A stretch of 64,000 nt of DNA from Trypanosoma brucei (Eukaryota): positions 1,056,001-1,120,000 of the forward strand of contig CP000068.1 in NCBI GenBank assembly GCA_000002445.1. The letters are read 5' to 3'. The notes beneath the pieces were generated by a model. That model was not told the origin of the DNA. It searched no databases and was given only the letters and a program-made list of their open reading frames with translations. The position numbers and the translations under genes are program-made. Each line of letters begins with the position of its first letter. The stretch's first letter is position 1. Positions 1 to 44,672 of the stretch are shown here, one piece after another.

Positions 1-3000
1 CGCAGCAACTCGGATACCATGGTAATGCGCATCGCCGAAGGTAAGAAATAGAGAAGGAGCTGCTCAGCATTTGCGATAAATTGTGGTGTGAACGGAACCA
101 GCGATTTCACAACGCGGTGGATCAAGGAGGGAGAAACGCCCAAGAAGATCAACCAGACGACCACAAGGACTGTCAAAAGAGATGCATCTCCCTGCAGCAA
201 CTCCCTTGCTTTAGCATCAAATGGAAGAATCAATACAGCGTCCTGCAGAAAATTGTTCGGCATCGATATAGCTGATTCTAGCATTATCAGCGCGACAGCC
301 AATGTTGCGCTTTGAAGAGAATCTGTGGTATTGGAAGTTTGGTAATCCACGGCATGTACAGCTGCTTCTTTGAGTAGGTTGTTGAATTCAACGTCTTTAA
401 TAGTCACCCTGCGAAGAACACTATCGAGTACCCGAAGAACCATGCGCGTGCTCCACGTCACACCAAAATTGGAGGTACCAGCACCTTCAAAAACAAGCCG
501 ACTTAGGGAATCACACAATCTTTGTAGTTTAAACATACATTTTTCCTTGTGAGAAGACTCCCCCCAAGCAGCGCACGTTCCTGTCGCCTTCGCGACAAGT
601 TGAATCAGGAAACGCACGTGTTCTGTATGTATGAAAGAAATTGAAGAGCCTCCCACTTCAATTTTGTTCACCTCCGCGGTGCGTGCGAGCGGAAGAATCC
701 AAGCGGAAAGTAGTTTGACATACGAGAACACATATTCAGCTGCCTTATGTGCCATACATGCAAATGTTCCCTCAACTGTAGCACTCAAGCTACCACTAGG
801 GTGCCCACCAACCGCCAACTGCAACAACGACTGCCGAGCGTAGAAACCAGAAAGAATTCCTTGTAAAGATACCGCACCGTACACAACTGTTGAGTAGGAT
901 GCGGTAAAGTCAGCACTGTCGAGAGGACAGGTTGGTAATTCACGAAGTTGTTGCAGCATCAAGGCAGCACCAGAGAGAAATGCAGAAAGTGACGGGTGCT
1001 TTCCAAAATGTCGGCAAAGCGTGTAAATGATGGCATCAAAAGAGCATGGAAGTAATTCTCTACGAAGTGAGTGCACGTAGGAGGTTTCACTTACACCTTC
1101 TCCCAGTTTGTGTATCATATGCAGACGATGGCACGTTTCATCAAGCGCTTTCGTCACCACATCTTTCAAAAGCGAGTCTACCGCTTCGATAGCTGCTGCG
1201 TTGTTTTCAGCGACAAACAACGAGGGACAAAACGGCGAGAGATTACTGCCTTTCCGGGCAGGAAACTTACGCCCGACAGAGCACCCCGCTAACGAATAAT
1301 GTAGTACCTTAAGCCAAAACAAACTGGCAACTGGCACAACATCACCGAATTGTTGCTGTAACTCTTCCACATGCACTATCAAAACCTCAACGAGTCCTGA
1401 AAAGGATGCCTCCTCGGAAGGTGCCTCCGACCCTGCACAACTCTCACTAGTAACCTCGGGAGGAATCGACAAAAGCACTCCAACGAAACTCGATATATCT
1501 CGCAGAAACCGGGTGTGGCTTTTAACCAAGTGGTCAAGTAAGATATGAAGCACAGAGAGCGCACGGTGCCGCATCCCCCGTTTCATAGTGCAGGTGAAAA
1601 TCGGAGTGATAGTCGTGTGATAACCTTTGTCATTGTAGAAAGGAATGCCAGACGTTATTCGGATATTGCCTCCGTTAGAATCCCACGTTGCTGCGCTCCT
1701 AAGGCTGAAAAGCACGACACAGACTCGTACAAACACGCTATTTTCTCCAGACGTGTTATGCTTCGAATCAAGATAAAGCGCCGAGTCGTGCATACTCAAC
1801 ACATCCAGCAAAACAGTTAGTAACCACGACGTTCCTTCATTCAGTGTGGCGTGGCCTCCATCCACTTCAACTACCTGCTCATCATTGAGACCCATCACAC
1901 ACAACTCCAGAAGTTTCAGCATGCTCTCCTCTGGAACTCGAAGACCCATCCGCCTCCTGCGAAACTCCCTGTAAGCGGAGGCCGCAGATTTCACATCATG
2001 GGTACGATGACACAAATCAAGCATATGCGTCAGTTCCGCTATCTCTGAATGTAGCTCCGGTGACTTGTATATGAAGCTCCGGTTGAGTAAGAAATACGCC
2101 ATTTCCACGTCACCTCCACACCCCTGCAGCACCGTTTTCCAAATAAAGGTAAAATCCACCTCCTTGACAACAGGCACCGGCCAAACCTGAAGTGCTAGAA
2201 GTATAATATGTCTCACCTCGTGCAACACAAAACACCGTCGTTGTTGATCTTCTGCCGTACTTGCGTCCTTATTCTCCTCACACAAAGTGTCATCCCCGCC
2301 ACGCCTATTACATTCCTTTCCTTGATTAGCTCTTTCCTTGTAATGGTGGCCCTGCCCCCTATGGCGAGGATTTCGGTGCTCTAGATGCCTCACACGCCGC
2401 GCACACGCCGTCAACGCCGCTTGTGCGATCCCTCGACTTTGCTGGTGACCCAACGCCAACAACGCAATGCGTATGAAGGAAAGTGGAGCGTGTGCAAAAG
2501 CAAATGAAAACCCTGCTATGTCGTGACTACTCAGCAGCCTCGCTTCATACTGTGTGAACAGAGACACTGCGTCAACCCACTGTTGCTGCTGCTTCAGTGA
2601 ATCGACCGTTTCAAACAAGTCAATATGCTCACTCTCGCTCAACGGAAGCTTCTTTGCCGGTGTGACGCTTCGTTCAGTTGTGCCGCGGTAGCGTAAAGCA
2701 GCTTCACTAGCAGTTTCAACAACTTGCAAGGCCTCCCGCCACCGCGGAGGGGTTGTTTGTGAGACCAACACGTCCATAATATACACGAGAGTGGTGCTCT
2801 TGTTAGTCGAATTATTGACTGCCACCACTTCATTACAATCACCTGCTATCGGATTGTGACACGGTTTTTGAGCACAAATAGAAATAGTCGCTTCAGCGAA
2901 AAGGGCTAGAGATAGTTCCCACATCTTTTCGCTCGGTTCAGTGCCTTCGAGAATGTTGACCGCGAGCCCTGTTTTTTCATTTGGGGGAAAGACACCACTT

Positions 3001-5390
3001 TCGTGCACAAGAGCGGCGACAGCAACCCGGCACAATTGCCACCTTTCCTTCTTTTCTTTAGTTTTCATTTGAAGTCTCTTGTTTTTTGTCAACCTTAGCA
3101 TATGCTCCAGCAACCCCTTTACGCGATAGTCCGCTATGGACTTAACGAGTGTGCCCAGCGTGGCAGTGATGTCGGGCACGGAGACTGAGTTTCTTTCCAT
3201 GTGAGTATGCGCAAGCATGGAAGCTAAATCGTTTACACTCTCTTGACGCTTCAGCACTTCTGATAGCCCGGGGACTACAACCGAGGAGTCAGACCCCATG
3301 CGAAATTGAGTGGGATTGTCATCTCGATGTTGGTGGTAAAAACAACCACCCTCTCTGAGAGAGACACCACAAATATCCACGGTAAACCGTCTGCTGAGAA
3401 ACTCCACTAGTTGCTGTATTTGCTTCATGGATTCGTCACTGACAGGAGATAGATCTTCCGTAATAATGTCATCGTCAACGTTAACGTGTGGGTCCCGCTT
3501 ACGGTTGCGACGGTTTTTATTTGTCGACTCATCGCCGCTTTGGGAAACCACCCGGGTCTTTCCTGCTTCACTTTCTCTATGTATGCGGTCCACGTAATTA
3601 TCGGCACCGAACCACATTGCCAACGCTGACGTCTCAGCAAAAAGCTCTCGTAGAAGCTCTTGCCAAGCGATGCATACACGCAGTTCATCCCCTTGTGCTT
3701 CTTTTTGGACATGGCGAAGAAACAAAGTGCTATTTGGAAAAAACACATCAGTCCAAAATTTTCTCCGCATCGCCGTACGAACAGAATTTGCGTCGAAAGA
3801 AAGTGAATCGGCAGAGCACTTTGAAACATCGCCGAAAGTGGGTTGCCGAATAACCCGGCATCCATCGATAACACGACAACTATTAACGCATGCGGTCATA
3901 ATTGTTCGGACGGTATCGACAACAACCCCAACGATAGCATCTCTCATTTCAACCTCGTGCTCATGAGTAAGGGCAGCAATCACAAGAGCGCCGTGCGACA
4001 TCAACAGCTGCAATACACGCTGCGCGTACTTGAGTTCAGAGTTGTCCAGCAGGCACACTGAGCAATCCTTCTCCCCATCCCCACCGTCCAGTAGCACTAA
4101 ACGTGCCGAAGCACACAACCGTATCAATGTGGTGGCATCCTCCTGCAAATGCTTCTCCTCGCTCTTCCGGGGTAGCAGATGTGGGGAGCACCGGAACTCA
4201 AACTGTCGCCTCCGCTGCTCAACCTTCAAAATAACCAAGTTAAGAACTGCCCTCCATTTCAATAGTTCTGTGTCGACTGCTGCACCCCAGTTTTCTCTTA
4301 GCTGTGCACACCACAAGAGTAAGTTCGCCGCATTGCACTCGAGGAAATGTGAGGGTGCCGTATCATCCCTTTTAACATCTTTTCCCTCACTCATTATGTA
4401 AGTGGGTAGATCGCGAATTACACAACCGTCAAGCATCTGTTCCAAAGCGATTTGAAGAACGTGTTCCATTGCTTGGGGCCGAAGGTTAGCGTTGTTGGCG
4501 ACCGCAGATATCAGTGAGTTTAAACTACAGCGCTCTGTCAGGTTATCGCAAACTCCGTTTCCCTCTACTCCTACCTCCCTTGGTGTGCCTTCGTGGTACG
4601 TGCAAACACGCAGTAACGTATATACTGCATCTTCCCACGATGAGGTGAAGCAGTCTGACATCTGCCCCTGTAACTTCAGCCAATGGGACTTATTACCAGG
4701 ACCATCGGCCTGATCTGAAGGTTCAAACACATCACGCACGCCAAGAAGCAGTTCAACTTGAATTACTCGAGTTTTCGTGTGTGGTCCTAAATTACACAAA
4801 TCAACAGCGCGAACTGACGAGTGCTCCTCCGTAAGTGATGCATTTGCCAGGAGAATATTCCTTGCGAACATTAACTGTTCCCTTCGCTTATCAGTCTCGA
4901 ATGTTGAAAATTCGTTAGAGTTACTACTTTGTCCACTCCCATGCTGTTGCCAGCTGTCCATAGCACGCAGAGCACTACGTACAATATCAGGCTCAAGCTG
5001 CAGCCTTTGTTCAGTGGCGTGTCGCACAAGCATCACCACCGCTCGCCAGCTCCCCATGCTGATAACGGCCTCTGACGCAAGAGCGGCGCCAAGCAGTACG
5101 TTACACAAATCCTCATCATCTTTTTTAATATCAGTAGTCACTGCACCAGTGCCCGCAGTTGTGGGGGTAGTTTTTTCATTCACTGCGATGAACTGACTAC
5201 TTAAACGGAGGACAAATTCCCACTGTCCGTTAGCTACTAAAAATGGGAAAAGTGTTTTGTATGGGAGGCTGCGAAGCGAGGTTCTGGCTTTCTCACACCC
5301 ACGGAGCACGCGTAAACAGGCGCGCCAGTCACCGCAATCAATATGTTTGGAAAAATATGTCGATAGAGAGTCACGTAGCCGTCCGGCCAT
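1..5390 (-). CDS. Large hypothetical protein, >=1796 aa inside the window, running off the window start (no stop within window)
   Basis: Manual minus-strand translation. A TAG at 5459-5457 is followed by the first ATG at 5390-5388. The frame was spot-checked open at about 4700, 4000, 3150, continuously through 2820-1320, at 620 and at 60-1. It is absent from the ORF track because it lacks an in-window stop. A T-run in minus sense lies at 5441-5460, and a polyY(-) tract at 5560-5760 sits upstream of the ATG. Confidence 0.7.
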   Translation of the reverse strand, partial: MAGRLRDSLSTYFSKHIDCGDWRACLRVLRGCEKARTSLRSLPYKTLFPFLVANGQWEFVLRLSSQFIAVNEKTTPTTAGTGAVTTDIKKDDEDLCNVLLGAALASEAVISMGSWRAVVMLVRHATEQRLQLEPDIVRSALRAMDSWQQHGSGQSSNSNEFSTFETDKRREQLMFARNILLANASLTEEHSSVRAVDLCNLGPHTKTRVIQVELLLGVRDVFEPSDQADGPGNKSHWLKLQGQMSDCFTSSWEDAVYTLLRVCTYHEGTPREVGVEGNGVCDNLTERCSLNSLISAVANNANLRPQAMEHVLQIALEQMLDGCVIRDLPTYIMSEGKDVKRDDTAPSHFLECNAANLLLWCAQLRENWGAAVDTELLKWRAVLNLVILKVEQRRRQFEFRCSPHLLPRKSEEKHLQEDATTLIRLCASARLVLLDGGDGEKDCSVCLLDNSELKYAQRVLQLLMSHGALVIAALTHEHEVEMRDAIVGVVVDTVRTIMTACVNSCRVIDGCRVIRQPTFGDVSKCSADSLSFDANSVRTAMRRKFWTDVFFPNSTLFLRHVQKEAQGDELRVCIAWQELLRELFAETSALAMWFGADNYVDRIHRESEAGKTRVVSQSGDESTNKNRRNRKRDPHVNVDDDIITEDLSPVSDESMKQIQQLVEFLSRRFTVDICGVSLREGGCFYHQHRDDNPTQFRMGSDSSVVVPGLSEVLKRQESVNDLASMLAHTHMERNSVSVPDITATLGTLVKSIADYRVKGLLEHMLRLTKNKRLQMKTKEKKERWQLCRVAVAALVHESGVFPPNEKTGLAVNILEGTEPSEKMWELSLALFAEATISICAQKPCHNPIAGDCNEVVAVNNSTNKSTTLVYIMDVLVSQTTPPRWREALQVVETASEAALRYRGTTERSVTPAKKLPLSESEHIDLFETVDSLKQQQQWVDAVSLFTQYEARLLSSHDIAGFSFAFAHAPLSFIRIALLALGHQQSRGIAQAALTACARRVRHLEHRNPRHRGQGHHYKERANQGKECNRRGGDDTLCEENKDASTAEDQQRRCFVLHEVRHIILLALQVWPVPVVKEVDFTFIWKTVLQGCGGDVEMAYFLLNRSFIYKSPELHSEIAELTHMLDLCHRTHDVKSAASAYREFRRRRMGLRVPEESMLKLLELCVMGLNDEQVVEVDGGHATLNEGTSWLLTVLLDVLSMHDSALYLDSKHNTSGENSVFVRVCVVLFSLRSAATWDSNGGNIRITSGIPFYNDKGYHTTITPIFTCTMKRGMRHRALSVLHILLDHLVKSHTRFLRDISSFVGVLLSIPPEVTSESCAGSEAPSEEASFSGLVEVLIVHVEELQQQFGDVVPVASLFWLKVLHYSLAGCSVGRKFPARKGSNLSPFCPSLFVAENNAAAIEAVDSLLKDVVTKALDETCHRLHMIHKLGEGVSETSYVHSLRRELLPCSFDAIIYTLCRHFGKHPSLSAFLSGAALMLQQLRELPTCPLDSADFTASYSTVVYGAVSLQGILSGFYARQSLLQLAVGGHPSGSLSATVEGTFACMAHKAAEYVFSYVKLLSAWILPLARTAEVNKIEVGGSSISFIHTEHVRFLIQLVAKATGTCAAWGESSHKEKCMFKLQRLCDSLSRLVFEGAGTSNFGVTWSTRMVLRVLDSVLRRVTIKDVEFNNLLKEAAVHAVDYQTSNTTDSLQSATLAVALIMLESAISMPNNFLQDAVLILPFDAKARELLQGDASLLTVLVVVWLIFLGVSPSLIHRVVKSLVPFTPQFIANAEQLLLYFLPSAMRITMVSELL

Positions 5391-6255
5391 AAAAGGAAAG
5401 TTATTATTCCTCGTATTGGTGTGCTGCGCTAATGTAAACGAAAATACGAAAAAAAAACTATTAATTAGATCAAATCCAAAGAATATCCGTCTCGGACCTT
5501 TTTTGATGTGTGCACGCGGGCAAGTAGTTGTTTTTGTAAGTAGTCCGACCTCACTGTGAAGAGGATGGCACTGCACAAGGAAATGGGCAACTTCCCACAA
5601 TAGTTATGACTAATCCCTGCAATGCGATAACGGTAAAAGGGGAGTGCCTCATTGTTTAAAGCAAAAACAGAGAAGGTGTAATGCTGAATGTGCCACAAGG
5701 AGAGTTGGAGTAGCCAAAACAGGCTAACAGTGCCATAAAGTGGCACAGGAAACGTTTTAACACTGCAGCGAGGGTTAGCAGTCATTAAAAAAAATGTGTA
5801 AAGTGCTTGTTTTATACGTGAATGATTCATTCAACTGTAAAATCGGGGGAAATGAAACAAGCAACTCTTTTCGCACTCATACAGTGTCTTTTTTCATTCA
5901 TCCCCCTTCCAACTATCTTGTCACTCACTACAATCGGCGACCTCCGCGCCATAGACACCTATAAGCTCATCCGCAAAAACGCCCTCGATCCTTTCCAGTC
6001 ACCCTTAATTTAACTCGCATTAAGACACCTTCTCTGCGTGCCATACTCTCCCAAGAGAGACCACCGACAAACCACTAATAACCGTAGCGCATTTAGAACC
6101 CCCGACCGCGCCCTTGGTAACCAACATCTGCTATATCAGTTTCCAAGCGAGGTGGTTGGGAAGCCGATACTCTTGTCCTCCCCTTAAACCAAAATAAAGA
6201 AACTTTTCCTCACGCGACACCAATGTTTCTTGAAGGAGGGAGGAGGGGGGAGGTG

Positions 6256-6543
6256 CTACTCCATACCGAGGGATCCCGGGGGCAGCCCTTGCAGCATCTC
6301 TTTTTCCCGTTGCTCCCTCGAAGCGTTCATCAAACGCATAACCTCAAAGTGCCGTGCGATGCACTTCCGCTGGCAAGCCTCCATCTTTTGTAGTTTAGCG
6401 TCCGGTAGAACCCCTTCAACTAATTCGTGTCGGGTGAGGTTACGGTCATAACATATGTCCCAGCATTGCTCAAGCGCACTATTTGCGAGATCAAGCATCC
6501 CGTAGCGCTCCATAGCCTGCATGAGCATCATTTGGCTCTGCAT
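6256..6543 (-). CDS. Small twin-CX3C protein (95 aa), possible small Tim-like/intermembrane-space protein
   Basis: Track ORF 6256..6561 opens with TTG. The first ATG is at 6543-6541 (MQSQMMLMQAMERYG...). Motifs are CWDIC ... CQRKC, two CX3C pairs about 25 residues apart. The orientation fits the surrounding minus-strand polycistronic unit. A polyY(-) tract (purine-rich on +) lies upstream at about 6780-6900. Confidence 0.4.
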   Translation of the reverse strand: MQSQMMLMQAMERYGMLDLANSALEQCWDICYDRNLTRHELVEGVLPDAKLQKMEACQRKCIARHFEVMRLMNASREQREKEMLQGLPPGSLGME

Positions 6544-6715
6544 GACTACTTCCAGCCACAAGTGATTGAAGTGGATAAGAAACGAAAGTAATTAACACTT
6601 TCCTTGTAACTTATTGCACGGCTACTCCCCCTGTGCGCTCTGTTTGACCGGCAAAAAAGATACCTACGTCTGGAGGAAAAAAAAATCCCTAAGTGATTTT
6701 TGGCACGCCTTCCTG

Positions 6716-6736
6716 TATATATATATATATATATAT
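6716..6736. repeat. (TA)10 microsatellite
   Basis: Read directly. Confidence 0.95.
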
Positions 6737-6960
6737 TAGGTCCGTAGTCCCCGTGGGTAAAGAATGCGCGAAGGTATTTGAAGATGTGAAAGTGTGCAAG
6801 GGAAGAAAAGAACCGAAAGGTGACTTGGAAAAACGTAACTTAGAAGTTACATGAATAAAAATGAAGGCAGTAGCGACAACATCGTGTAGAAATGGGGAGA
6901 AGAGAATCGTGAAGAAAGAAGATTTGCACAGCTGTCCATGTAAGATCGTACGCTACATTT

Positions 6961-7262
6961 TCTATTTTTATTTTCTTCTTTCCCCACCAACGCCACCGCC
7001 GTGAGGTGGCATCTTTCCATATAGATTTCACAGCTGGTAATTGATCTACTTTTGCTTTTTTTTTTCCTTCCCCCCTTCCCTTGTGCCGCCGTTTCACATC
7101 CCTATTTGCGCCCTCATTAAAATATACACCACCCTTTCATCAACTCGCAGTTGCAACCCTATCCACCCCTCATATTATTTTCTCCATTCGCCATTATTTA
7201 CACATTTTCCCTCCCCATTCTAAACTCCACCATTTCTTCCCCTCCTCCTCCTCCGGTTACTA
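6961..7262 (-). other. ~300-nt block that is almost pure C/T on + strand (purine/G-rich in transcript sense) between SOD and the small CX3C ORF
   Basis: ttttctatttttattttcttctttccccacc ... cctcctcctcctcc. The transcript-sense G-rich stretch GGAGGAGGAGGAGGGG could form a G-quadruplex. Confidence 0.8.
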
Positions 7263-7699
7263 AATCTTCCACTACAATGTGAACAAGTTTATGGTATTTT
7301 GAACTGAAGAAGCAAATAGGAACCAGAGGACGATAGAATCATTATAGAAGGTGCCGAAAATGTACGAGTAAAGGAAAATAAATAAAAATAAATAAGAGTC
7401 ATGGAGGAAAATACAAAGTTGTGAAGGGACCTAAGCATCCGATCCAACAGTAAGAAAAAAAGTGGGAGACATCAAGCTACGTTCGGTTGCGTATAACTTA
7501 ATTAACAGCTGCATCGCACATCCATGAACGGAAAGCACAACCTCCTTCCAGAAATATCTTCACTAAACTATAAAAGTAAGGGAGACAGTTGAGTCAAAAC
7601 CGTGAGAAGCATCAAAAAACAGTAAAGTTTAAAAAGTTAAAGGCGCGCACCGAAAAAAAAAATTAATGGATAAGCTGACCTTTTGCAGAGGCACTGAAG

Positions 7700-8416
7700 T
7701 TACTTCATAGCCTGTTCATACGTCCTTGAAACAAACTCCCAATCAACAATAGTCCAAATTTCCTTGAGGTAATCCACGCGCCGGTTTTCAAAGTCCTTGT
7801 AATATGCATGTTCCCACACATCCACTGTGAAGACGGGTCGGAGTCCTTTTGTGATTGGGCACCCGGCATTGCTGGTATTATCAATTACAAGAGGTTTACC
7901 CTTATTTTTCGGGTCCACACACAACCACGTCCAGCCAGAGCCAAAGTTGTTTGCTCCCGCTTGCATGAACGTGTCCTTAAAACCGTCAACTGAACCAAAC
8001 TGAGCAGTGAGGGCAGACTCCAGGGATTTGGGCATTGGCTTCCCATTGGGTGTAATGCACAACCAATAAAAGGAGTGGTTGAAGTGCTGTGCCGCTTGGT
8101 TGAACAAGACCTTCTTCTCAGAATCATTAGCTAAAGCAACGATAATATCCTCCATAGTTTTTCCATCGTATGTGGCTCCCGCCAGTGCATTCAACTTGTC
8201 AACATACGCCTTGTGATGCTTCGTGTAGTGCAGCTCCAACTGACGTGGGCTGAGCACCGGTGCACATCCGTCTTTCCAGTTGAACTGAAGCGGTGGCAAT
8301 TCCGCTGCTGCTCCATTTGGCTTCTTAAGGTTAGGCAAAGTTGCGTACTGCATGCACGCAAGGCCCAGTGGTGCCATGTGATGGCCCGTTGCGCAACGCA
8401 TCATGACAGACCTCAT
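7700..8416 (-). CDS. SODA: Iron superoxide dismutase with N-terminal mitochondrial-type presequence
   Basis: Fe/Mn-SOD motifs: HYTKHHKAY, FNQAAQHFNHSFYW and DVWEHAYY (metal ligands). Track ORF 7700..8443 begins with GTG. The first ATG at 8416-8414 gives MRSVMMRCATG... The gene symbol is by analogy with T. brucei mitochondrial Fe-SOD and is my recollection, not verified. Confidence 0.85.
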   Translation of the reverse strand: MRSVMMRCATGHHMAPLGLACMQYATLPNLKKPNGAAAELPPLQFNWKDGCAPVLSPRQLELHYTKHHKAYVDKLNALAGATYDGKTMEDIIVALANDSEKKVLFNQAAQHFNHSFYWLCITPNGKPMPKSLESALTAQFGSVDGFKDTFMQAGANNFGSGWTWLCVDPKNKGKPLVIDNTSNAGCPITKGLRPVFTVDVWEHAYYKDFENRRVDYLKEIWTIVDWEFVSRTYEQAMK

Positions 8417-8640
8417 ATGATAAGATAAAGTGCCTGCACACACCAGTTGCTTTCCAGTTCCTCTTATTTTCCCTATGCCAAAACCTCGCTCACAAATGAT
8501 CTATACTCTCCTCGGTTTGAACGAAACCTCTTTTTTCTCCAGTGTGTCGCAAAGCCAACTCTTGATATATAGTGACAGCAATAATTTTTTTTTTTAAATG
8601 TTTTCTTCCACTACCCAGCTGCTAATACGCAAGCTGTCAA

Positions 8641-8870
8641 TAAGTCCGTAATAATAATAGTAATAACAATGACAACAGCAACTACACGGTGCGCGTAGAA
8701 AAAAGAAACGTTTTTTTTTGACTTTTCCTCTTGCTGTATTTTTTAGTCGTAAGTGTTCAAGTAAAAAACTAAAACAAATAATAATGATAATGATAACAGT
8801 AACCTTTAACCACACAGTAAACGATAACAAACAAACAATAATAACAACAGCAATAGTAAGTCCTTAGATG
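8641..8870. repeat. Imperfect AAT/AAC/ATG trinucleotide-repeat blocks in the intergenic region between the mito-L2 and SOD genes
   Basis: taataataatagtaataacaatgacaacagcaac... and aataataatgataatgataacagtaac...caataataacaacagcaatag. The track translates these as poly-Y/poly-I artefact ORFs. Confidence 0.85.
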
Positions 8871-9354
8871 TGACAACCCTGATGGTCCCTGGTTTCTTTT
8901 ATTTCCTTAAGCGAGAAAACACACAACGTGTAAAGAGAAAAAGTGGAAACAAATTGAAGAAAGGGTTGTAAATAGTAAGAGGGATATGTTTCAAAAAAAA
9001 AAGGCAATGATGCGCGATACTGGGAAGCGTGGGGAGCCACAAATTACCTGATCGCAGCCTCGGTGGCGAACATGCCTACGAAAAAGGCGGTACAGTGGGG
9101 AGAAACCTATCGCGGGTAGTAGTTTGTAAAACAACAAAAACAACAGAATGAAAGGTAAAGAAATAGGGATCAGATGTACCACACTGAAGCATATGAAGCC
9201 TCCCCCCCTCCTCCGTTAAAAACAAAGGAAGGCGCGACAAGAGGCACGAAGAAATAATTCACGTCGTGAATAAATTTACCTCTTTTCATTATTACCGGTC
9301 ATATTACGTCAGCTTGTTTTTCCGACAACGCCACGACCGCAAATAACTCAACCT

Positions 9355-10590
9355 TTACCTGTAAACAGGATCCCGATTAGCCCAACTGTATGTCTTTGAT
9401 TTAATGTCCGCCACCGTCTGACCTTTATTGTACTGTCTACCTCGTAGAATGTAACCTGACAGCCAATATTTCGTCTTGACGCAATTGCGCGGGTGGATCC
9501 GCCAGTCTAACGGCACCAACAAGTTTGAAGAACCACCATTACCTCCACCAGCAGGGTGACTGGAAACCCTTTTTGTTTTGGAGTGTACTTTCGGTCGGTG
9601 GGGCATATACTCCTCCACGTTCCTCTTACCGAAGTTTCGCTGGTAGCGATACATCACACCTGCCCGACGACCGAACACCGCATGACACTCATTATCAAAG
9701 AGACGCACCTCCTTGGAGGGAAGGAGTAATGGAACAAGATTGGGTTCCGCGCCACGCAGCACAACCGCCGCGGCGCCACTTGCACGGCAAATGACACCTC
9801 CGTGGCCGGGGTACATCTCAACCGAGTGCAGTTCCTTGCCATAAGTCACTTCACTAAGCGATACAGTTTGCCCTATCGTCGGTAAACCGCTGCTAGATCG
9901 TTTGTTGTAACATATTCGTGGAAGCTGCTTGTACGTAAGAAGCTCAGCAACGTACGCACCATTAGCGTAAAGGAAGAAACCAACAAACTTCTTTTTCCTT
10001 GGCAGGTGCACAATGCACGCAAGCCATTTGGGGACACGTTTTTGTGGTTTGTGATTCACCATAATTCTATACCCCCAAGAGCGTTCCTCCACACGGCGGT
10101 AATGTCCCATCACCACTTTACTTCCTGGGTTCGTTCCCGAGCGGTGCCCCCAGTAATCGCGGCTGGAAAACCCTTGCCAATCGTAATACAGGGGTGTATA
10201 TATCATCATATTTGCATTCACCTGAAATGGAGACCAAATATCCTTCTGCAAAAGTTGCTGCGAAAAACCATGGTCTGGGGACCGCACGTATTCCAGTCGA
10301 AGCGTCATGGGCGGGCCTTCCTTGAAGACACCGAAGTCATCGGTGTAGCCATCATACATTTCGGTATGCTTAATTTGTACATCCTTTCCTGCCTCCAGTT
10401 TTGGTTCTGTACCGTAATGTTGGCTACCTTGCTTACCTATTGGATTCGATAGTTTTACGCCTCGCTTTGAGCCGCACAGAACGACGGGTAGAAGTGTTGA
10501 CAAGTCAGAAACCGCTGCCGTGCGGGCAGCTACTGACCGGTGCAGGACATTTCCATATATCAACGTAATGGGGCGTCGCCATGTTGCCAT
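9355..10590 (-). CDS. Mitochondrial ribosomal protein uL2m (kinetoplastid-expanded L2)
   Basis: The C-terminal half carries diverged uL2 signatures: GHGGVICRASGAAAVVLRG, and HPAGGGNGG (compare bacterial HPHGGGEG). Track start 10599 is GTG. The first ATG at 10590-10588 gives MATWRRPITLIYG. The N-terminus is basic and hydroxylated. Confidence 0.6.
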   Translation of the reverse strand: MATWRRPITLIYGNVLHRSVAARTAAVSDLSTLLPVVLCGSKRGVKLSNPIGKQGSQHYGTEPKLEAGKDVQIKHTEMYDGYTDDFGVFKEGPPMTLRLEYVRSPDHGFSQQLLQKDIWSPFQVNANMMIYTPLYYDWQGFSSRDYWGHRSGTNPGSKVVMGHYRRVEERSWGYRIMVNHKPQKRVPKWLACIVHLPRKKKFVGFFLYANGAYVAELLTYKQLPRICYNKRSSSGLPTIGQTVSLSEVTYGKELHSVEMYPGHGGVICRASGAAAVVLRGAEPNLVPLLLPSKEVRLFDNECHAVFGRRAGVMYRYQRNFGKRNVEEYMPHRPKVHSKTKRVSSHPAGGGNGGSSNLLVPLDWRIHPRNCVKTKYWLSGYILRGRQYNKGQTVADIKSKTYSWANRDPVYR

Positions 10591-10921
10591 TTGAACCACT
10601 TGTAGCGCCTGTACACTGCTAAGGAAAAGATATATATTTACATGTTACGTGGAAAGAGAAAAAATAGAAAGGGAAAATAATTGTATGCAATAAACAGTGA
10701 GTAGACGAGCCTGTGCAGGTAAACATGCATACACATAGCGAAAAAGACAAAACGACATGGCAATCAAGCAACAAACACAACGGAAAACACCACGAATCAC
10801 AAGGAATATGAGTACCATCTTCTCATAATTTTGTTTGCAAAACTCTCACGTGTGAAGAGAGTAGTGGGAACATTAGATAGAGAGAGAAGGGACGGTGCGT
10901 GAGTGATACATCACATTGCTA

Positions 10922-10945
10922 ATATATATATATATATATATATAT
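10922..10945. repeat. (AT)12 microsatellite
   Basis: Read directly. Confidence 0.95.
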
Positions 10946-11166
10946 TCGCTTGTTATAATTAAAAACAGGAAGCAGGAAAACAAGAACTATTACACATAAA
11001 CATTTGACAAAAAAAAAGTATTATAGGACAAACGGGAGGTACAAGTTAAAAAAAAAAACAGAAAAAACAACGCAAAATAGAATAGATAGACACACAACAT
11101 TAATAAAAAGGAACGTACAAAAAGCGAGAGAACAAAAAAAAAACGCCAGTGCTCACACACATATAC

Positions 11167-11183
11167 TATATATATATATATAT
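11167..11183. repeat. (TA)8 microsatellite
   Basis: Read directly. Confidence 0.9.
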
Positions 11184-11227
11184 TATATGAAGCATCGGAA
11201 CAATTCCGTGCTATCCCCAGGCTTAAG

Positions 11228-12928
11228 TTACCTTTGTAATGATGGCGACTTCGTGATGCGCAGTTCTATAGTCAGGCGACTCCCACTAAGTTCGCGCGCA
11301 GTTTCACAACCCAAAACACCACTTTTTCCGGTATGAGTAGTGCTGGCGCTGCTGTCACCCCCCTCGAGGGAAGATTCAACTGCCGCCATAGGTACTGCAG
11401 TTTCGGTAGCAGCAATACAGCAGTTCGCATCGGCACCACTACCGGAAATCCCCGAAGAAGATAGAAGTGGAAGTCCAGTGAAGAGTGCATATGTGGAAGC
11501 GGTACAATTCACAACAAAGGCGTTACCACCAGGTGTCGAGTCTCCATTAGTACACCATTCACTACCGCATTCATTACTAACCTTGATTACGTCGCGACGC
11601 TCATTTGTCCTTGGCATAACGATAGAATCATTGCGCAACGCAAGCTCAGCGGAGCGAGCAGGATGCCACTCTACAGGTACGAAGTTGGTGGGGCCACCAT
11701 TTTTCTCACTGGGGTTTCCTTTTCCATCAACCGAACTCTCAGACGAATTAAGCGACTCCTTCGGTGTGGTTGTCACTTCCCGCACCAAATGAGTTAAAGG
11801 TCGTGCTGTTTGCTTTCCCGGGCTTGGTTGCTTTTGAAAGAACGCATTTGTGCATATAAAAATATTTCCCGCTTCTTCCGTTGAACCCCCTTTTGAGCCG
11901 CCCAGTGAGTTCTCTTCCGCACTCTCCAGCTTTACAGTTGTTTCCCGATGGTTATCAAACGAGGCGCCCTGTGATTTACCACAGCGATCCGAATAATGGC
12001 TGAACAACGCGCTAACGAAACACACGGAGAAGTTAGACAACGAATGCTCCTGCGGTTCTTCTTGCACGTCACGTACGTTTTCTGGTTTTGCCTGTGAACT
12101 TATGATAAGTGCTCCCTTCGTATGAGCCTCCGTTACACAATGAAGTGCATCTTTACATGAGTGCACATGCAACAGCTCGTAGTACGTTTGAAGGGAAGGA
12201 TGCCCTTCTTCCAATACCGCTAGCGTTGCCTTAACTTCCTCATCCGTTAACTCCTCTTCAGTAACAGGAGGTGGACCATCATGCCTCTCCTCGCTGCACA
12301 CGCCGATACCGGTTGCACTACTTTGTAGCCTCCCTGGGCAAGTGTTATGGCTGATGCCAAACTCGTCAGTGCTGTACGTTTCCCTCCTCGCCAAATGCGA
12401 AACGCTAGATCTCCGCCTAAGGTCAGCACCTATGGACATTCGTCGTTGGCTACTCCCAACAGAGCCGTCTTTAGAGACAGTACTCAGTCTCCGTTTCAGT
12501 ACAGAGTTTTTATTGCCATTACCGCTACCATTGTCCGAAAGGGGCAAACTCCACTCCCGCCGCCCAAAGGCACCATTGGACACGAGGCTCCCTCGTGGTT
12601 TGCCCAAATGCCCCACGGAACTTCTTACGCTACTTCCTCGGCTGCTACTACCTTCGCGCGGATGAGTAGTGCTTGAGGCCCTCGCTAACATACCGGACGG
12701 ACAAATCAGCGGGTCAACATGCCGTACAAACGTCACTTCTCTGTCTTCCATTGCACTACTGGTTGCCTCAATAATTCTCGTTGAAAGGTCTATCACACGG
12801 TCCACAAGTTTGTTGAACTGGCGCTGCACAAGGTCCACATGACCGTTGGCGATTGCGGTGCGCGTAATATCCAAAATGGACTCACATTCCCCAGGTTTTA
12901 AGCCTGGAGAATTCCCTGTAGTGTCCAT
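11228..12928 (-). CDS. Hypothetical Ser-rich protein (566 aa)
   Basis: Long ORF in the orientation of the minus unit. ATG verified at 12928-12926. Low-complexity Ser/Gly-rich central region. No recognisable domain. Confidence 0.55.
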   Translation of the reverse strand: MDTTGNSPGLKPGECESILDITRTAIANGHVDLVQRQFNKLVDRVIDLSTRIIEATSSAMEDREVTFVRHVDPLICPSGMLARASSTTHPREGSSSRGSSVRSSVGHLGKPRGSLVSNGAFGRREWSLPLSDNGSGNGNKNSVLKRRLSTVSKDGSVGSSQRRMSIGADLRRRSSVSHLARRETYSTDEFGISHNTCPGRLQSSATGIGVCSEERHDGPPPVTEEELTDEEVKATLAVLEEGHPSLQTYYELLHVHSCKDALHCVTEAHTKGALIISSQAKPENVRDVQEEPQEHSLSNFSVCFVSALFSHYSDRCGKSQGASFDNHRETTVKLESAEENSLGGSKGGSTEEAGNIFICTNAFFQKQPSPGKQTARPLTHLVREVTTTPKESLNSSESSVDGKGNPSEKNGGPTNFVPVEWHPARSAELALRNDSIVMPRTNERRDVIKVSNECGSEWCTNGDSTPGGNAFVVNCTASTYALFTGLPLLSSSGISGSGADANCCIAATETAVPMAAVESSLEGGDSSASTTHTGKSGVLGCETARELSGSRLTIELRITKSPSLQR

Positions 12929-13860
12929 GACTTGATTCCCTGTTACTGTGGTGTGTTCAAATTTATTTATTTATTTATTAATGCAGAAGCAGTAACTCAA
13001 CCCAGAGAAAAGGAATATGCTGCAAAAAAAAAAAAGAGGGTAACCTATGCAAGGAAGGAACGAGGGAAGCTATGTGAAAAGGTGAAGTTATATGCCAAGA
13101 TGAAAAATGAAAGAGATTACATTGTAGATACGGGTTAATGGTAAATCCAGCAACGTAAATGTTGGAAGTGTTCGTAGCTATGTGCATAAAACGCAGATCA
13201 CTAACTAATCAGGTGTAGTAAACAATTTTTATTTACTTAGCTCTCCCTTTCTCTTCTTTTTATCCATTTCTTCTTCCCTTTCTCTCTAATATAACTGCAT
13301 GACAAGCGCAACTAATCGGCGCAACAAAGTGTGGGGGAAAGCTCGAATGCTCAATATATAGACACATTCCGATTGTCAACGTACACGTATATGAATACCA
13401 TATGCCACCACAACATGCGTAACAACATAACAATATATGAACAAAAATAATGCACATTTTCCCGATACCCCCTCCCCACTGTGAAGTAAACCACTACAGT
13501 CTATTTCAACCTCCTAAAAGGAAATCAAGTAATGCTTCCTTCGATTCTTCAACCTGTGTCAGCCAGATACAAAACAACGAAAACGTTTTGTATGCAAATA
13601 TATTAAAATATAAAACGTCTACGCAACGCACATGCCCTTGGTATCGGTGACACTCGTAGACATCACTTGTGCACAGCGAAACGGAGCAAAGTGAGTGCCC
13701 TGTGTATGAATAATACAGTAAAAAAAAAAAATGGTCCAATCTGCCTTCCGTCTCTTGTTTCCCTCGCTGTGTTCTGCTATTGTTGGCCTCCCACATCACA
13801 CACCAACGGCATTGGCTACGTGTAATGACCAATACAAAACTGCGCATTTAAAAAAGAATG

Positions 13861-15684
13861 TTACTGGAAGCCGAGCTGTCGCTTCACCACGGTGATGCGT
13901 TCACGGTCCATCATGTGCCGCGCTTCCAACTCTAATATCCGTTGACGCCGCTGACGTGCGGCTTCGTCCCGAGGTGAGGAATACTCCCGCCGGCGAGCTT
14001 CCGAGGGAGACGAATCGCTACTGCCGGCAGGTTTCTTGGAAGTGGCCGGCACTATACGGGGTAAATTGCGAGCATATTCCAGTGCGCGGGCCCTTCGCTG
14101 CTGTGCCTGAACACGCTCGGGTGGGGGCGGCTGTCGAATCACAGCCGTTGCCTCCGTCGCGGCGGCCGACTGAGCGCCATCCTCTTCATTGTTACTTTTC
14201 TGCTTCTGTAGCTGCGCCCGTTGTTGCTTTTCACGGATATCTTCTATTATGTGCTGTTCAGCTTGGACTCCATACTCACGTTGCCGTTGCATTCGCCTTC
14301 TCGCCTCTTGCCGCTCCTCAGTGTCCACAAACCCAAGGCTGCCAAGCTTGCGATTTGCTACCTCCTCCATCAATGCCTTGTACTCCTTCAGACCATGCGG
14401 TTTGTACGTTATGGTTCTTTTCTTCTCAGTCTCTTCTGCTCCATCACCAGTAGTATCCCCCCTTTCATCAGTGTTGGTGGTGGTGGTAAAACTGTTCACC
14501 GCGTACGCGCTGTTATTCAGCGGTGTCTGTTTCAGTGGCTGTAGTCGCCTAGGGTGCGATGCCGGTCTTCGGTGCTGATCATTACCAGATATCTCTTTTG
14601 CACGCTGCGGCTTTGGAAGTATCGGGGTATCACCTACTCTCATCTTATCTTCGCCTCCTGGGTTTGAAGCACTTGTAGACCTTGCAGGGCTCGAAAAGGG
14701 CTTCCTGTGCTTATATGAAGCATTCTCTGACATGTCTTGAAGAAGCTTTCCCATTGGTTGGTACATAGGAGGTACAATCGCATCGCCGCGCAACGCGTTC
14801 GCTTGTTTACCGTCTTCACTGCTTTGGGGAGAAGCGCCACAACCGCCTTGGCGATTCTCAACTTGGCCGCTGATGCCACCACACCGATTGGGAGAGTCCC
14901 CAGGAGTTAGTGAAACCTCCGCCACCTTCGACGGTTTAGGCATAAGGGATGTGGAGTAACCATTTACAATGCGCGGCCGAACTTGAGTCAAAGGGTGTGG
15001 CGCCAGGTCGGGTCTTTGTGCAACTCCCAAGGAATCAGCTATCGGGCGGGCAGGGCCACGAGAGGGCGATGGGTTAATATTAGAGCTGGTACGATCAGCA
15101 ATGAAAGAGCTCAACGGATCAGCGGTGCCGTTTCCTCCACAAGACGGAATATTCGAGAGAGAAAGCAGCTGCGGCCGGGGTGGCAGGGCCATCGGTTCAT
15201 ACATAATGTTGTCTTCGACACTCGGGCATGTCGACGGCTGCACGGCAGTCGCGCCAACGAGTGCACCGCTACTTACGGTATCCGCTGAATCATTCAGCGG
15301 TCGTTGTACCGTTCTGTCCTTACAAAGCACAGCACCTTGTCGAGCAACAACAGGGCACGGACGGTGCAGCTGTCCTCTTGTAGGTCTTTTTGCCACTTCG
15401 TCTGGTGCACGAATACCTCCCACTATAGTTGGTTTGCCACCCATATATTCGGGTGCTTTGTGCTTTTGATCTATTATACCCGCAGCCAGCGGACCATTCT
15501 TCGCAACGGGAGGCACTTTCAGTGACTTGACTGGTCCCGCTGTGATCAACTGCGCGTTGCTACCGTCCTTCCCGATGATTACTGCACGGTTTTGAAAGTG
15601 CAGCTGAAACGCAGAGGGAGGAGGCGGCACGTTTTGTCGGTCCTCCGGAGGGTCCCAAACATCCCTGTCTCTCCGCACCATCAT
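13861..15684 (-). CDS. Hypothetical Pro/Ser-rich protein (607 aa)
   Basis: Long ORF in the orientation of the minus unit. ATG verified at 15684-15682. Pro-rich low-complexity centre and a basic/coiled C-terminus. Confidence 0.55.
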   Translation of the reverse strand: MMVRRDRDVWDPPEDRQNVPPPPSAFQLHFQNRAVIIGKDGSNAQLITAGPVKSLKVPPVAKNGPLAAGIIDQKHKAPEYMGGKPTIVGGIRAPDEVAKRPTRGQLHRPCPVVARQGAVLCKDRTVQRPLNDSADTVSSGALVGATAVQPSTCPSVEDNIMYEPMALPPRPQLLSLSNIPSCGGNGTADPLSSFIADRTSSNINPSPSRGPARPIADSLGVAQRPDLAPHPLTQVRPRIVNGYSTSLMPKPSKVAEVSLTPGDSPNRCGGISGQVENRQGGCGASPQSSEDGKQANALRGDAIVPPMYQPMGKLLQDMSENASYKHRKPFSSPARSTSASNPGGEDKMRVGDTPILPKPQRAKEISGNDQHRRPASHPRRLQPLKQTPLNNSAYAVNSFTTTTNTDERGDTTGDGAEETEKKRTITYKPHGLKEYKALMEEVANRKLGSLGFVDTEERQEARRRMQRQREYGVQAEQHIIEDIREKQQRAQLQKQKSNNEEDGAQSAAATEATAVIRQPPPPERVQAQQRRARALEYARNLPRIVPATSKKPAGSSDSSPSEARRREYSSPRDEAARQRRQRILELEARHMMDRERITVVKRQLGFQ

Positions 15685-28950: not shown

Positions 28951-30096
28951 CTAAACTTGAATCACAGAAACCCGGTCCATACACTTCCGCTGGCCAGACA
29001 AGGCATGCTGAAATAACGTGTTAGATATCGTTGTTTGATCCACATGATAAAGTGTCAATAATTCATCTCTCACAACCAAAGTAAGAGGAACACTGGCACC
29101 AGGTACAATATCACCTCCAAGAGAGCGGAGACGGGCACATGTGACAAATGTTGCAAAGGGATCTGTGCACAACTGGTGCAGTTGGCAATACCGCCGCATG
29201 TGAATAGTCAAGAGAGTGCTATAACGCCTCCCATTGGCATTTACGCATTCAACTCGAGGACAAGTCTCACTGCTTGCTGCATTGGGGTTCTCCAATTGCT
29301 CCGCATTATACAACATCAAAGGAACAGCAGATTCCCCTGGAGGAGTATCGCTGTCCTCAACACGAGGATCACGGCTTGTGGAGGAAGACATTTCAGTCAC
29401 TGTAGGAGGACAGGGCACGGGAACACAACGCCCCCGCTCACTTGTCATCACCATTGTTCCAAGTGCTGCAGCTTCCTCTTCAGTTACCCAATATTGTGAC
29501 TTGAATCGTGTATAGAAGGGGTGACTCATAAGCACCAGCCGCAGTCTTCGAGAGAAGGGTCGCCCCGTTGCGCAGAGTGGCATGGCCTTCACCGACGCAA
29601 GCGCAACGCATGAATCAGCCTCCGGAGAGTTCGTTTGCTGCAGGTTGTAAAGAACCACGTTAAACATCGAGGTGCTCACTTCAACCCCAACCTCACATTC
29701 CAGCACCGTGTAACCCCCTCGTATATATGATGCATTTGTAGCCCAAACAGGCGATCGGAAACCTCGTAACTCCGCTGCATTCGCAAGTTGTTGTGCCACA
29801 TCGCCTTCATACAATACACCACGAAGGTTCATCGGTTTGTAGTATGATGGTAGAGATCCGACCCTCGTAACCGCAGCACGCTGGGAAGCGGTTTCACCGA
29901 GCAGGTTGTCAAGTGAGTTGCAAATACTTTCATTAATTGAAACTTGAGGATGTGTTGCAACTTCCTCAACAGCACATGCGGGAGTTTCTGATGACATCGC
30001 CAGGGGTTTTAACATTTCTCTCCGTCCTCGAAAAAAGACAGCAGAGTGCCATAAACTCCGTGTAACCAGCATGTGGTGTGGTGCAAACCGTCTCAT
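28951..30096 (-). CDS. Hypothetical protein (381 aa) with presequence-like N-terminus
   Basis: Track start 30120 is TTG. The first ATG at 30096-30094 gives MRRFAPHHMLVTRSLWHSAVFFRGRR. No recognisable domain. Confidence 0.5.
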   Translation of the reverse strand: MRRFAPHHMLVTRSLWHSAVFFRGRREMLKPLAMSSETPACAVEEVATHPQVSINESICNSLDNLLGETASQRAAVTRVGSLPSYYKPMNLRGVLYEGDVAQQLANAAELRGFRSPVWATNASYIRGGYTVLECEVGVEVSTSMFNVVLYNLQQTNSPEADSCVALASVKAMPLCATGRPFSRRLRLVLMSHPFYTRFKSQYWVTEEEAAALGTMVMTSERGRCVPVPCPPTVTEMSSSTSRDPRVEDSDTPPGESAVPLMLYNAEQLENPNAASSETCPRVECVNANGRRYSTLLTIHMRRYCQLHQLCTDPFATFVTCARLRSLGGDIVPGASVPLTLVVRDELLTLYHVDQTTISNTLFQHALSGQRKCMDRVSVIQV

Positions 30097-30525
30097 TGTA
30101 CCAACGGATGTTTGTTTCAAAAGGTGCCCGAGTTTTTTTTTGTTAATAATTATATTTCTTCAAAACAAAAAAAGAAATAAAATGGCAACGCACGTCTCTC
30201 CGTGTAACGACGAACTCCTACTAAGCTCAACGCAACTAACAAAAATTTTAAAAAATAGAAAAAAGAGAGAAGATAATAATGTTAGCATTTAAGAGCGAAA
30301 GGGTTCAACGAGAAAGGAATTTTTAACTGTGGGAATCCGTTCTGTGTATGTCTCGCGCAGTTCTTGTTACGCACAATTTTAGAAGACAGAGGTCAAAAGT
30401 TTTACCTCAACCAAATTTTATGAAAGGGATAAGAACACGACATTCCGTAGGCTGCAACAAACACTGTCACACACACACACACAGAGACAGAGAAACACAC
30501 GTACACTGACAAAATTCACTTAAGT

Positions 30526-43802: not shown

Positions 43803-43814
43803 GGGGGGGGGGGG
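43803..43814 (+). repeat. G12 homopolymer
   Basis: ggggggggggggg read directly from the sequence. Confidence 0.95.
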
Positions 43815-44661: not shown

Positions 44662-44672
44662 GTCTCCATTCC
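44662..44672 (-). repeat. C11 on + strand (G11 in minus-unit sense), preceded by T14 at 44605-44618
   Basis: Read directly from the sequence. Confidence 0.95.

What the first reader, a model, noticed from the sequence alone, without database searches (positions are those of the whole stretch)
1..5390. A >1.79-kaa gene that the ORF track cannot see; the listed plus-strand ORFs here are antisense artefacts
The track shows only short plus-strand ORFs over 1-5560. The minus strand carries one uninterrupted frame from ATG 5390 to the window edge, checked at many points. This is the largest protein in the window and has no domain I recognise. It is probably a kinetoplastid-specific large helical protein.
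Basis: seen in the sequence. Interest (0 to 1): 0.5.

Follow-up and report, generated by a model that had tools for sequence, protein, structure and literature searches.

The report
Start of a giant trypanosome mitochondrial protein
The long open frame is real: it is the first 38% of an already annotated but unstudied 4,692-residue (522 kDa) Trypanosoma brucei gene, Tb927.5.3330, whose all-helical product is imported into the mitochondrion and sits beside the mitochondrial DNA.

Summary
Observation confirmed. The minus strand of 1-5390 is one open frame of 1796 codons starting at ATG 5390 (chance about 2e-41). The ORF tool omits it only because it runs off the window edge.

It is identical over all 1796 residues to T. 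brucei TREU927 XP_845005.1 / UniProt Q57Z60, a 4,692-aa "hypothetical protein, conserved". Published tables tie Q57Z60 to Tb927.5.3330. The window therefore holds the N-terminal 38% of an annotated gene.

No Pfam family and no PDB sequence relative was found for the whole protein. Two low-confidence AlphaFold models of the window part are entirely helical. They match only generic helical-repeat proteins. Homologues were found only in kinetoplastids. They are collinear, syntenic and fast-evolving (about 30% identity within Trypanosoma).

Two published high-throughput data sets bear on it. One shows ATOM40-dependent mitochondrial import. The other places it at the kinetoplast antipodal sites.

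Best reading, inferred: a non-enzymatic helical scaffold of the antipodal-site assemblies. A role in mitochondrial RNA processing is the main rival.

The gene is already known, so interest is modest.

The parts
1..5390 (-). Codons 1-1796 (plus 2 bases of codon 1797) of Tb927.5.3330. This is the N-terminal 38% of a 4,692-aa protein; the remaining 2,896 codons lie beyond window position 1.
   Evidence: No stop in 1796 codons. 100% identity over 1796/1796 residues to P0003 = XP_845005.1/Q57Z60. Codon-usage score is positive only in this frame.
5388..5390 (-). Start codon ATG.
   Evidence: First ATG in the open frame. It is the same start as the annotated protein. The N-terminus M-x-x-R-L-R-x-S-L is conserved in T. 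congolense, T. cruzi marinkellei, T. rangeli, T. conorhini and T. cruzi; T. vivax has MPSRLGSAL.
5424..5457 (-). Polypyrimidine tract (about 5431-5457) followed by AG dinucleotides (5430/5429 and 5425/5424). This is a candidate trans-splice acceptor, giving a 5' UTR of about 33-38 nt.
   Evidence: Read directly from the sequence. The assignment rests on the known polypyrimidine-AG rule of trypanosome trans-splicing; it is not tested.
5001..5390 (-). Residues 1-130, the best conserved N-terminal block. It is the part that still detects the most distant homologues.
   Evidence: 52% mean identity across five Trypanosoma species for residues 1-100, against 32% overall. P0006, P0008 and P0009 match here. 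pLDDT is mostly 70-86, apart from a dip at residues 71-90.
2541..2750 (-). Residues 881-950, the family signature block PPRW-EALQVVE ... PLSESE-IDL ... QW--A--LF--YE.
   Evidence: Columns invariant within Trypanosoma. Bodo saltans P0007 matches the profile across positions 882-1142 and aligns to T. brucei residues 848-953. The motif can be seen in P0007, P0008 and P0009.
1791..2243 (-). Residues 1050-1200, a conserved helical block and the most confidently modelled part.
   Evidence: pLDDT is 75-92 for model residues 190-310. There are many invariant columns.
3450..3605 (-). Residues 596-647, a poorly conserved, low-complexity, probably disordered linker.
   Evidence: pLDDT below 50 and no secondary structure. 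The orthologues have unalignable Gly/Arg/Ser-rich inserts here.
2250..2390 (-). Residues 1001-1047, a basic/charged variable linker.
   Evidence: pLDDT 32-40. Variable in the alignments.
108..200 (-). Residues 1731-1761, the only strongly hydrophobic stretch in the window part. It is not conserved, so probably a buried helix rather than a membrane span.
   Evidence: Kyte-Doolittle peak of 2.45. This is the least conserved 100-residue block, at 18% identity. The T. cruzi marinkellei composite has no equivalent segment.
3488..5559 (+). Four plus-strand ORFs (3488-3853, 4030-4401, 4777-5196, 5257-5559). They are antisense artefacts of a bacterial-code ORF caller.
   Evidence: GTG/TTG starts. Codon-usage scores from -0.12 to 0.00. 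They lie opposite a conserved coding frame.

Best explanation
SHOWN: the region encodes residues 1-1796 of Tb927.5.3330 (UniProt Q57Z60), a 4,692-aa, 522-kDa protein of Trypanosoma brucei chromosome 5. The gene lies in a minus-strand polycistronic unit just downstream of the small-Tim gene TbTim11 and the mitochondrial superoxide dismutase SODA. The protein has no detectable catalytic or known domain. The window part is predicted to be all alpha-helical, with short disordered linkers. The family is restricted to kinetoplastids, collinear over the full length, conserved in gene position and fast-evolving.

FROM PUBLISHED DATA: the protein is expressed. Its level in purified mitochondria falls about six-fold when the outer-membrane import pore ATOM40 is depleted. 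The tagged protein localises to the kinetoplast antipodal sites.

INFERRED: it works as a very large, non-enzymatic helical-repeat (alpha-solenoid) scaffold. Its long concave and convex helical surfaces would hold together, or position, the protein assemblies at the two poles of the kinetoplast DNA disc. Those assemblies are where newly replicated minicircles are processed and re-attached. The few conserved blocks (residues 1-130, 881-950 and 1050-1200 in the window part) would be the partner-binding sites, and the rest would be fast-evolving spacer.
For: Identity: 1796/1796 identical residues to P0003, which is XP_845005.1 / Q57Z60 on a 1,608,198-bp T. brucei TREU927 contig. The ImportOmics tables give 'Tb927.5.3330 | hypothetical protein, conserved | Q57Z60 | 521.76 kDa'.

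Neighbours fit chromosome 5. A twin-Cx3C small Tim lies at 6256-6561 and corresponds to Tb927.5.3340. An Fe-SOD lies at 7700-8416 and corresponds to Tb927.5.3350.

No domain: no Pfam match on the full protein and no PDB sequence match.

Mitochondrial: ATOM40-knockdown ratio 0.16, n=4, p=0.0028, 32 peptides; listed among the 'new mitochondrial candidate proteins'.

Antipodal sites: one of 58 proteins so annotated by TrypTag. [quoted passage not shown]

Conservation: full-length collinear orthologues of 4,672-4,685 aa in T. rangeli, T. conorhini and T. cruzi. The same Tim11-to-giant-gene adjacency is seen in two distant kinetoplastid contigs.
Against: The scaffold role is inference. No interaction, knock-down or binding data for this protein were found in the searchable literature.

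The models are of low confidence (mean pLDDT 56-58, pTM 0.47-0.52) and rest on six-sequence alignments, so the helix packing is not established.

The TrypTag 'antipodal sites' class also contains RNA-editing subunits KREPA2, KREPA3 and KREPA5. The location therefore does not prove a DNA-replication context.

The high-throughput localisation is a single tagging experiment, and I could not see its details.

The N-terminus is conserved from residue 1, which is not typical of a cleaved presequence. The import signal is unidentified.
Confidence: 0.6

Rival explanations
1. It is a giant RNA-binding helical-repeat protein, a degenerate relative of pentatricopeptide (PPR) or heptatricopeptide (HPR) repeat proteins. 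On this view it acts in mitochondrial RNA processing, editing or ribosome assembly next to the kinetoplast, rather than in DNA replication.
Confidence: 0.25
2. It is what some database labels say: a 'microtubule-associated protein' (T. equiperdum records) or a 'DNA repair and recombination protein RAD54' (T. rangeli and T. conorhini records).
For: Only the source names themselves.
Against: No SNF2/helicase domain or any other Pfam domain in T. brucei or in the labelled orthologues; their precomputed Pfam entry is '-'. The published data place the protein in the mitochondrion at the kinetoplast, not on the cytoskeleton or in the nucleus.
Confidence: 0.02
3. The long frame is a chance or non-coding open frame, or a pseudogene.
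For: None, beyond the lack of known domains.
Against: Chance probability is about 2e-41. The codon usage is gene-like. Full-length collinear orthologues exist in at least five other Trypanosoma species. 32 peptides were detected by mass spectrometry.
Confidence: 0.01

Closest known systems
Tb927.5.3330 (XP_845005.1, UniProt Q57Z60), 'hypothetical protein, conserved', T. brucei brucei TREU927 chromosome 5
   Same: It is this gene: 100% identity over all 1796 window-encoded residues, the same start codon and the same neighbours.
   Different: The window holds only residues 1-1796 of 4,692.
Eukaryotic giant alpha-solenoid scaffolds (HEAT/ARM-type: cohesin SA and condensin HEAT subunits, FANCD2/FANCI, karyopherins, MMS19, the N-terminal solenoids of ATM/TRRAP)
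   Different: No sequence or profile similarity. TM-scores are only 0.1-0.2, and no HEAT/ARM Pfam match. The protein is mitochondrial and confined to kinetoplastids. The resemblance is one of class, not of family.
Organellar helical-hairpin repeat RNA binders (PPR, HPR; for example T. brucei mt-LAF14, Toxoplasma mL146, plant PRORP1)
   Different: No Pfam PPR match, no regular 35-38-residue periodicity, no detectable internal repeats, and about ten times longer than typical members.
Known structural or non-enzymatic kinetoplast proteins of T. brucei (for example MiRF172 at the antipodal sites, p197 of the tripartite attachment complex)
   Same: Large, kinetoplastid-specific, domain-poor proteins that organise kDNA replication or segregation. 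They share the same cellular neighbourhood.
   Different: I compared no sequences with them, and none of them turned up in the homology searches. Tb927.5.3330 is in TrypTag's antipodal-site list, not its TAC list, and has not been functionally studied.

Membership tests
Tb927.5.3330 orthologue group (giant kinetoplastid protein) | Sequence identity or collinear homology to Q57Z60 from the N-terminus | tested here: met
   1796/1796 identical. Collinear alignments to the T. vivax, T. rangeli, T. congolense and T. cruzi marinkellei proteins.
Tb927.5.3330 orthologue group (giant kinetoplastid protein) | Conserved genomic position: downstream of Tim11 and SODA, on the same strand | tested here: met
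   In the window, a Tim11-like ORF at 6256-6561 and an Fe-SOD at 7700-8416. The same order is seen in L003, and Tim11 adjacency in L004. Gene identifiers come from the literature.
Pentatricopeptide repeat (PPR) proteins | Match to the Pfam PPR models | tested here: not met
   No family at E<=1 on the full protein or on P0006. On the 1796-aa window part the only match is one sub-threshold, non-repeat hit (PLA2_B, E=0.23, 10.3 bits against a cutoff of 23).
Pentatricopeptide repeat (PPR) proteins | Tandem repeats of about 35 residues | tested here: not met
   The W-x-x-A-L motif positions are irregular. hhalign of 400-residue segments against each other gives probabilities below 4%.
HEAT/ARM alpha-solenoid class (a structural class, not a homologous family) | Stacked helical hairpins forming a solenoid | tested here: inconclusive
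   The models are all-alpha and hit solenoids. However, mean pLDDT is 56-58, TM-scores are 0.1-0.2 and E-values about 1e-3.
RAD54 / SNF2 ATPases (label on the T. rangeli and T. conorhini orthologues) | SNF2_N and Helicase_C domains | tested here: not met
   No Pfam domain in the T. brucei protein. The precomputed Pfam entry is '-' for the labelled orthologues.
Mitochondrial matrix-imported proteins of T. brucei | Abundance in mitochondria depends on the import pore ATOM40 | not testable with these tools
   Taken from published tables: ratio 0.16, p=0.0028, n=4.
Mitochondrial matrix-imported proteins of T. brucei | Recognisable N-terminal presequence | not tested
   No predictor was available. 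The N-terminus MAGRLRDSL is basic but conserved from residue 1, so the signal remains unidentified.
Kinetoplast antipodal-site proteins | Two foci flanking the kDNA disc by microscopy | not testable with these tools
   Listed under 'antipodal sites' in the TrypTag source data, one of 58 proteins.

The most novel reading that the evidence does not exclude
Tb927.5.3330 could be the missing architectural core of the antipodal sites. On this reading a half-megadalton helical scaffold, conserved from free-living bodonids to parasites, nucleates the two replication/re-attachment factories at the poles of the kinetoplast DNA disc and sets their number and position. Because it also exists in Bodo saltans, whose kDNA is not a catenated network, it would predate the network and point to an older role in organising mitochondrial nucleoid poles.
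Probability: 0.25. Interest if true: 0.6.

Novelty: already known. Interest (0 to 1): 0.3.

Why it matters
As a sequence finding it is ordinary. The ORF list misses the gene only because the gene runs off the window, and the gene has been annotated since the T. brucei genome was published.

The protein itself is a real gap in knowledge. It is 522 kDa, with no recognisable domain, and it is confined to kinetoplastids. Published screens show it is expressed, imported into the mitochondrion and located at the antipodal sites. A recent paper still calls the composition and structure of those sites 'poorly defined'. No paper in the searchable library names it in its main text.

If it organises those sites, it would be a parasite-specific structural target. 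It would also offer a handle on how the kinetoplast replication factories are built. The work also corrects misleading database names on its orthologues ('RAD54', 'microtubule-associated protein') and shows that the T. congolense and T. cruzi marinkellei gene models are frameshift fragments.

Tried and rejected
- Pfam on the window part, on the full protein, on the Leishmania-like orthologue P0006 and on the downstream frames of the T. cruzi marinkellei and T. congolense loci gave nothing usable.
- PDB sequence search gave no hit, so the protein is not a chain of any solved trypanosome mitoribosome, assembly-intermediate or editosome structure.
- The first word-indexed protein search returned only two truncated orthologues. 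The exhaustive profile search first failed because the profile exceeded 1200 positions. It was repeated with trimmed sequences.
- Exact look-ups of the window's SODA and of P0003 found neither on record, so the DNA beyond the window could not be fetched.
- Foldseek against AFDB50 was not available.
- Internal repeats were looked for and not found: TRF on the DNA and hhalign self-comparison.
- A membrane-protein reading was rejected. There is a single, non-conserved hydrophobic segment.
- tRNA and Rfam scans of the window found nothing.
- Literature: there is no main-text mention of Tb927.5.3330, Q57Z60 or XP_845005. It is absent from the supplements of the 2026 kDNA genetic screen and of the 2017 mitoproteome compilation. 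The mtTF1 paper has no supplements held. The MitoTag paper and the original RIT-seq paper are not held.

Full report
**1. The observation**

Translating the reverse complement of window 1-5390 gives 1796 sense codons and no stop. The frame is open upstream as far as 5603, but the first ATG in it is at 5390. With the local base composition, a stop is expected every 20 codons or so. The chance of 1796 stop-free codons is about 2e-41.

A codon-usage log-likelihood trained on six other genes of the window is positive only for this frame: +0.15 per codon, against -0.20 to -0.45 for the other five. The ORF tool lists only short ORFs over this stretch. By its stated rule, ORFs that run off either end of the source are not listed.

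The four plus-strand ORFs start with GTG or TTG under the bacterial code and have codon-usage scores of zero or below. They lie antisense to a conserved coding frame and are artefacts.

**2. Where the window comes from**

Long stop-free frames lie on the minus strand from 1 to about 42.8 kb and on the plus strand from 46.4 kb onward. The GC skew changes sign at that point. This is a divergent strand-switch region between two polycistronic units, as in trypanosomatids.

The neighbours upstream of the target on the minus strand are as follows:
- a twin-Cx3C small Tim (6256-6561);
- an Fe-superoxide dismutase with an N-terminal extension (7700-8416);
- mitochondrial ribosomal protein L2;
- a SERCA-type ATPase;
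- mitochondrial L9;
- an ABC1 kinase;
- UBA2;
- a Tc-38/p38 protein;
- eIF2A.

The literature gives Tb927.5.3340 as TbTim11 and Tb927.5.3350 as TbSODA. That placed the target at Tb927.5.3330 on T. brucei chromosome 5.

**3. Identity**

The word-indexed protein search found only two truncated relatives: T. congolense (39% identity, 1544 aa) and T. cruzi marinkellei (33%, 1197 aa). Their contigs show that the homology continues in another reading frame straight after each called gene. These gene models are fragments produced by frameshifts in draft assemblies. In T. cruzi marinkellei the three consecutive pieces add up to about 4,700 residues.

An exhaustive profile search of 1.84 billion representative proteins then returned P0003, of 4,692 aa. 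It is identical to the window product at all 1796 positions. P0003 is XP_845005.1 / AAZ11446.1 / UniProt Q57Z60, 'hypothetical protein, conserved', on the 1,608,198-bp contig of T. brucei brucei TREU927.

The ImportOmics supplementary tables carry the row 'Tb927.5.3330; Tb11.v5.0868; Tb11.v5.0867 | hypothetical protein, conserved | Q57Z60 | 521.76 kDa'. This fixes the gene identifier. The last two window bases on the minus strand ('cg') fit Arg1797 of that protein. So the window holds 38% of an annotated gene, and the other 2,896 codons lie beyond position 1.

**4. Anatomy**

A polypyrimidine tract (about 5431-5457) followed by AG dinucleotides lies 33-38 nt upstream of the ATG. This would suit a trans-splice acceptor, but that is inference only.

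The protein is Leu/Val/Ser/Ala-rich. Its window part has a single strongly hydrophobic stretch (residues 1731-1761). That stretch falls in the least conserved block and has no counterpart in T. cruzi marinkellei. A membrane span is therefore unlikely.

No Pfam family matches the full protein even at E<=1. The only match on the window fragment is a meaningless sub-threshold one (PLA2_B, E=0.23). No PDB chain matches by sequence. There are no DNA tandem repeats and no internal protein repeats detectable by profile-profile comparison.

A W-x-x-[AGSV]-[LIVMA] motif is about 2.5-fold enriched over shuffles in every long homologue, but its spacing is irregular.

AlphaFold2 on six-sequence alignments gave two models:
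- residues 1-1000: mean pLDDT 56, pTM 0.47;
- residues 861-1796: mean pLDDT 58, pTM 0.52.

Both are entirely helical, with about 40 helices each. The confident stretches are residues 1-150, 700-830, 1050-1170 and 1270-1370. Low-confidence linkers lie at 596-647 and 1001-1047.

**5. Distribution and evolution**

Full-length orthologues of 4,672-4,685 aa exist in T. rangeli, T. conorhini and T. cruzi. T. vivax has one of 4,338 aa. Alignments are collinear end to end, yet only 30-32% identical. Mean identity of T. brucei to four other Trypanosoma species is 0.32. The peaks are at residues 1-100, 901-1000, 2901-3000 and 3301-3400. T. b. gambiense and T. equiperdum differ from TREU927 at 48-49 residues.

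A 4,374-aa protein from a sequencing-run assembly (P0006) matches in only three collinear patches, at 21-38% identity. It nevertheless sits in the same gene order: mitochondrial L2, Fe-SOD, small Tim, giant gene. A metagenomic 2,879-aa protein (P0009) matches only at the N-terminus (residues 1-63) but also has a Tim11-like ORF directly upstream. Bodo saltans P0007 shares the signature block at residues 881-950.

The exhaustive search returned nothing outside this set. The family is therefore kinetoplastid-specific, old, positionally conserved and fast-evolving.

**6. Published experimental data**

In ImportOmics (PMC5436138), Tb927.5.3330 was identified with 32 peptides. It dropped to a ratio of 0.16 (log2 -2.65, n=4, p=0.0028) in gradient-purified mitochondria after ATOM40 RNAi. 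It is listed among the 'new mitochondrial candidate proteins'.

In the TrypTag genome-wide localisation resource (PMC9981465), it is one of 58 proteins annotated 'antipodal sites' of the kinetoplast. That list mixes two kinds of protein:
- kDNA replication enzymes: TOP2mt, Pol beta-PAK and ligases k-alpha/k-beta, whose identifiers were checked;
- editosome subunits: KREPA2, KREPA3 and KREPA5, checked.

The location therefore does not tell DNA work from RNA work. No paper in the searchable library names the gene in its main text. It is absent from the supplements of a 2026 kDNA genetic screen.

**7. How it most likely works**

Shown here or in published screens: a real, expressed, mitochondrial, kinetoplast-adjacent protein of 522 kDa. 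It has no detectable catalytic domain, and the modelled window part is predicted to be all-helical.

Inferred: it acts as a scaffold. Very long alpha-solenoids offer extended surfaces for many partners. They are the usual solution for organising DNA-transaction machines; cohesin and condensin HEAT subunits and FANCD2/I are examples. This is established knowledge of those families, not tested here. The antipodal sites are described as large protein conglomerates of poorly defined composition. The pattern of a few conserved islands in a fast-evolving helical body fits partner-binding sites separated by spacers. I put about 0.6 on the combined statement. The identity part is near certain; the scaffold part is roughly even odds.

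The database names 'RAD54' and 'microtubule-associated protein' on some orthologues have no support.

**8. Verdict**

The thing is, however, an already annotated gene seen through a window edge, so the finding is not new.

The remaining interest lies in the protein. It is one of the largest mitochondrial proteins of T. brucei, it is domain-less, and it has not been studied functionally. Interest 0.3; novelty: already known.

Noticed in passing
window 6256-6561 (-), first ATG at 6543; also L003:5293-5547 and L004:1-306: A roughly 95-aa twin-Cx3C small Tim (TbTim11, Tb927.5.3340) lies directly upstream of the giant gene. The same adjacency is kept in a distant trypanosomatid assembly and in a metagenomic kinetoplastid contig, whose giant protein is otherwise barely alignable.
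   Followed up: partly
L001 (T. cruzi marinkellei AHKC01018384) 292-13885; L002 (T. congolense CAEQ01002231) 2329-9246: In both draft genomes the orthologous gene is split into two or three overlapping gene models by frameshifts. The public proteins of 1197 aa and 1544 aa are therefore fragments of a protein of about 4,700 aa.
   Followed up: yes
orthologues P0010/P0011 (T. equiperdum), P0016 (T. rangeli), P0017 (T. conorhini): Source names ('microtubule-associated protein', 'putative DNA repair and recombination protein RAD54') are attached to orthologues that have no Pfam domain at all. These look like annotation errors.
   Followed up: partly
window about 42800-46400: A divergent strand-switch region. 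Minus-strand genes end at about 42.8 kb (a SET-domain protein), plus-strand genes begin at 46403 (an SMC protein), and the GC skew changes sign here. This is a likely transcription start region of two polycistronic units.
   Followed up: no
window 7700-30159 (-): The same polycistronic unit carries several other mitochondrial genes: SODA, mitochondrial ribosomal proteins L2 and L9, an ABC1 kinase, and a Tc-38/p38-family protein at 28954-30159. From my own knowledge, not checked here, that family binds kDNA. The clustering may be coincidence, since trypanosome polycistrons are not operons.
   Followed up: no
window 5465-5830 (-): A 121-aa ATG ORF sits in the intergenic stretch between Tim11 and the giant gene. 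It has an odd, hydrophobic, low-complexity composition and no evidence of coding. It probably lies in untranslated-region or intergenic sequence.
   Followed up: no
window 55955-59047 (+) and 46403-50032 (+): A very strong Meckelin/TMEM67 match (E 1e-232), which is a ciliary transition-zone protein, and an SMC-family ATPase lie in the plus-strand unit.
   Followed up: no
whole window: The exact protein sequences of this window (SODA, and the full-length giant protein) are 'not on record' in the contig look-up, although the proteins are in the protein collection. The T. brucei source assembly seems to be withheld from that index.
   Followed up: partly
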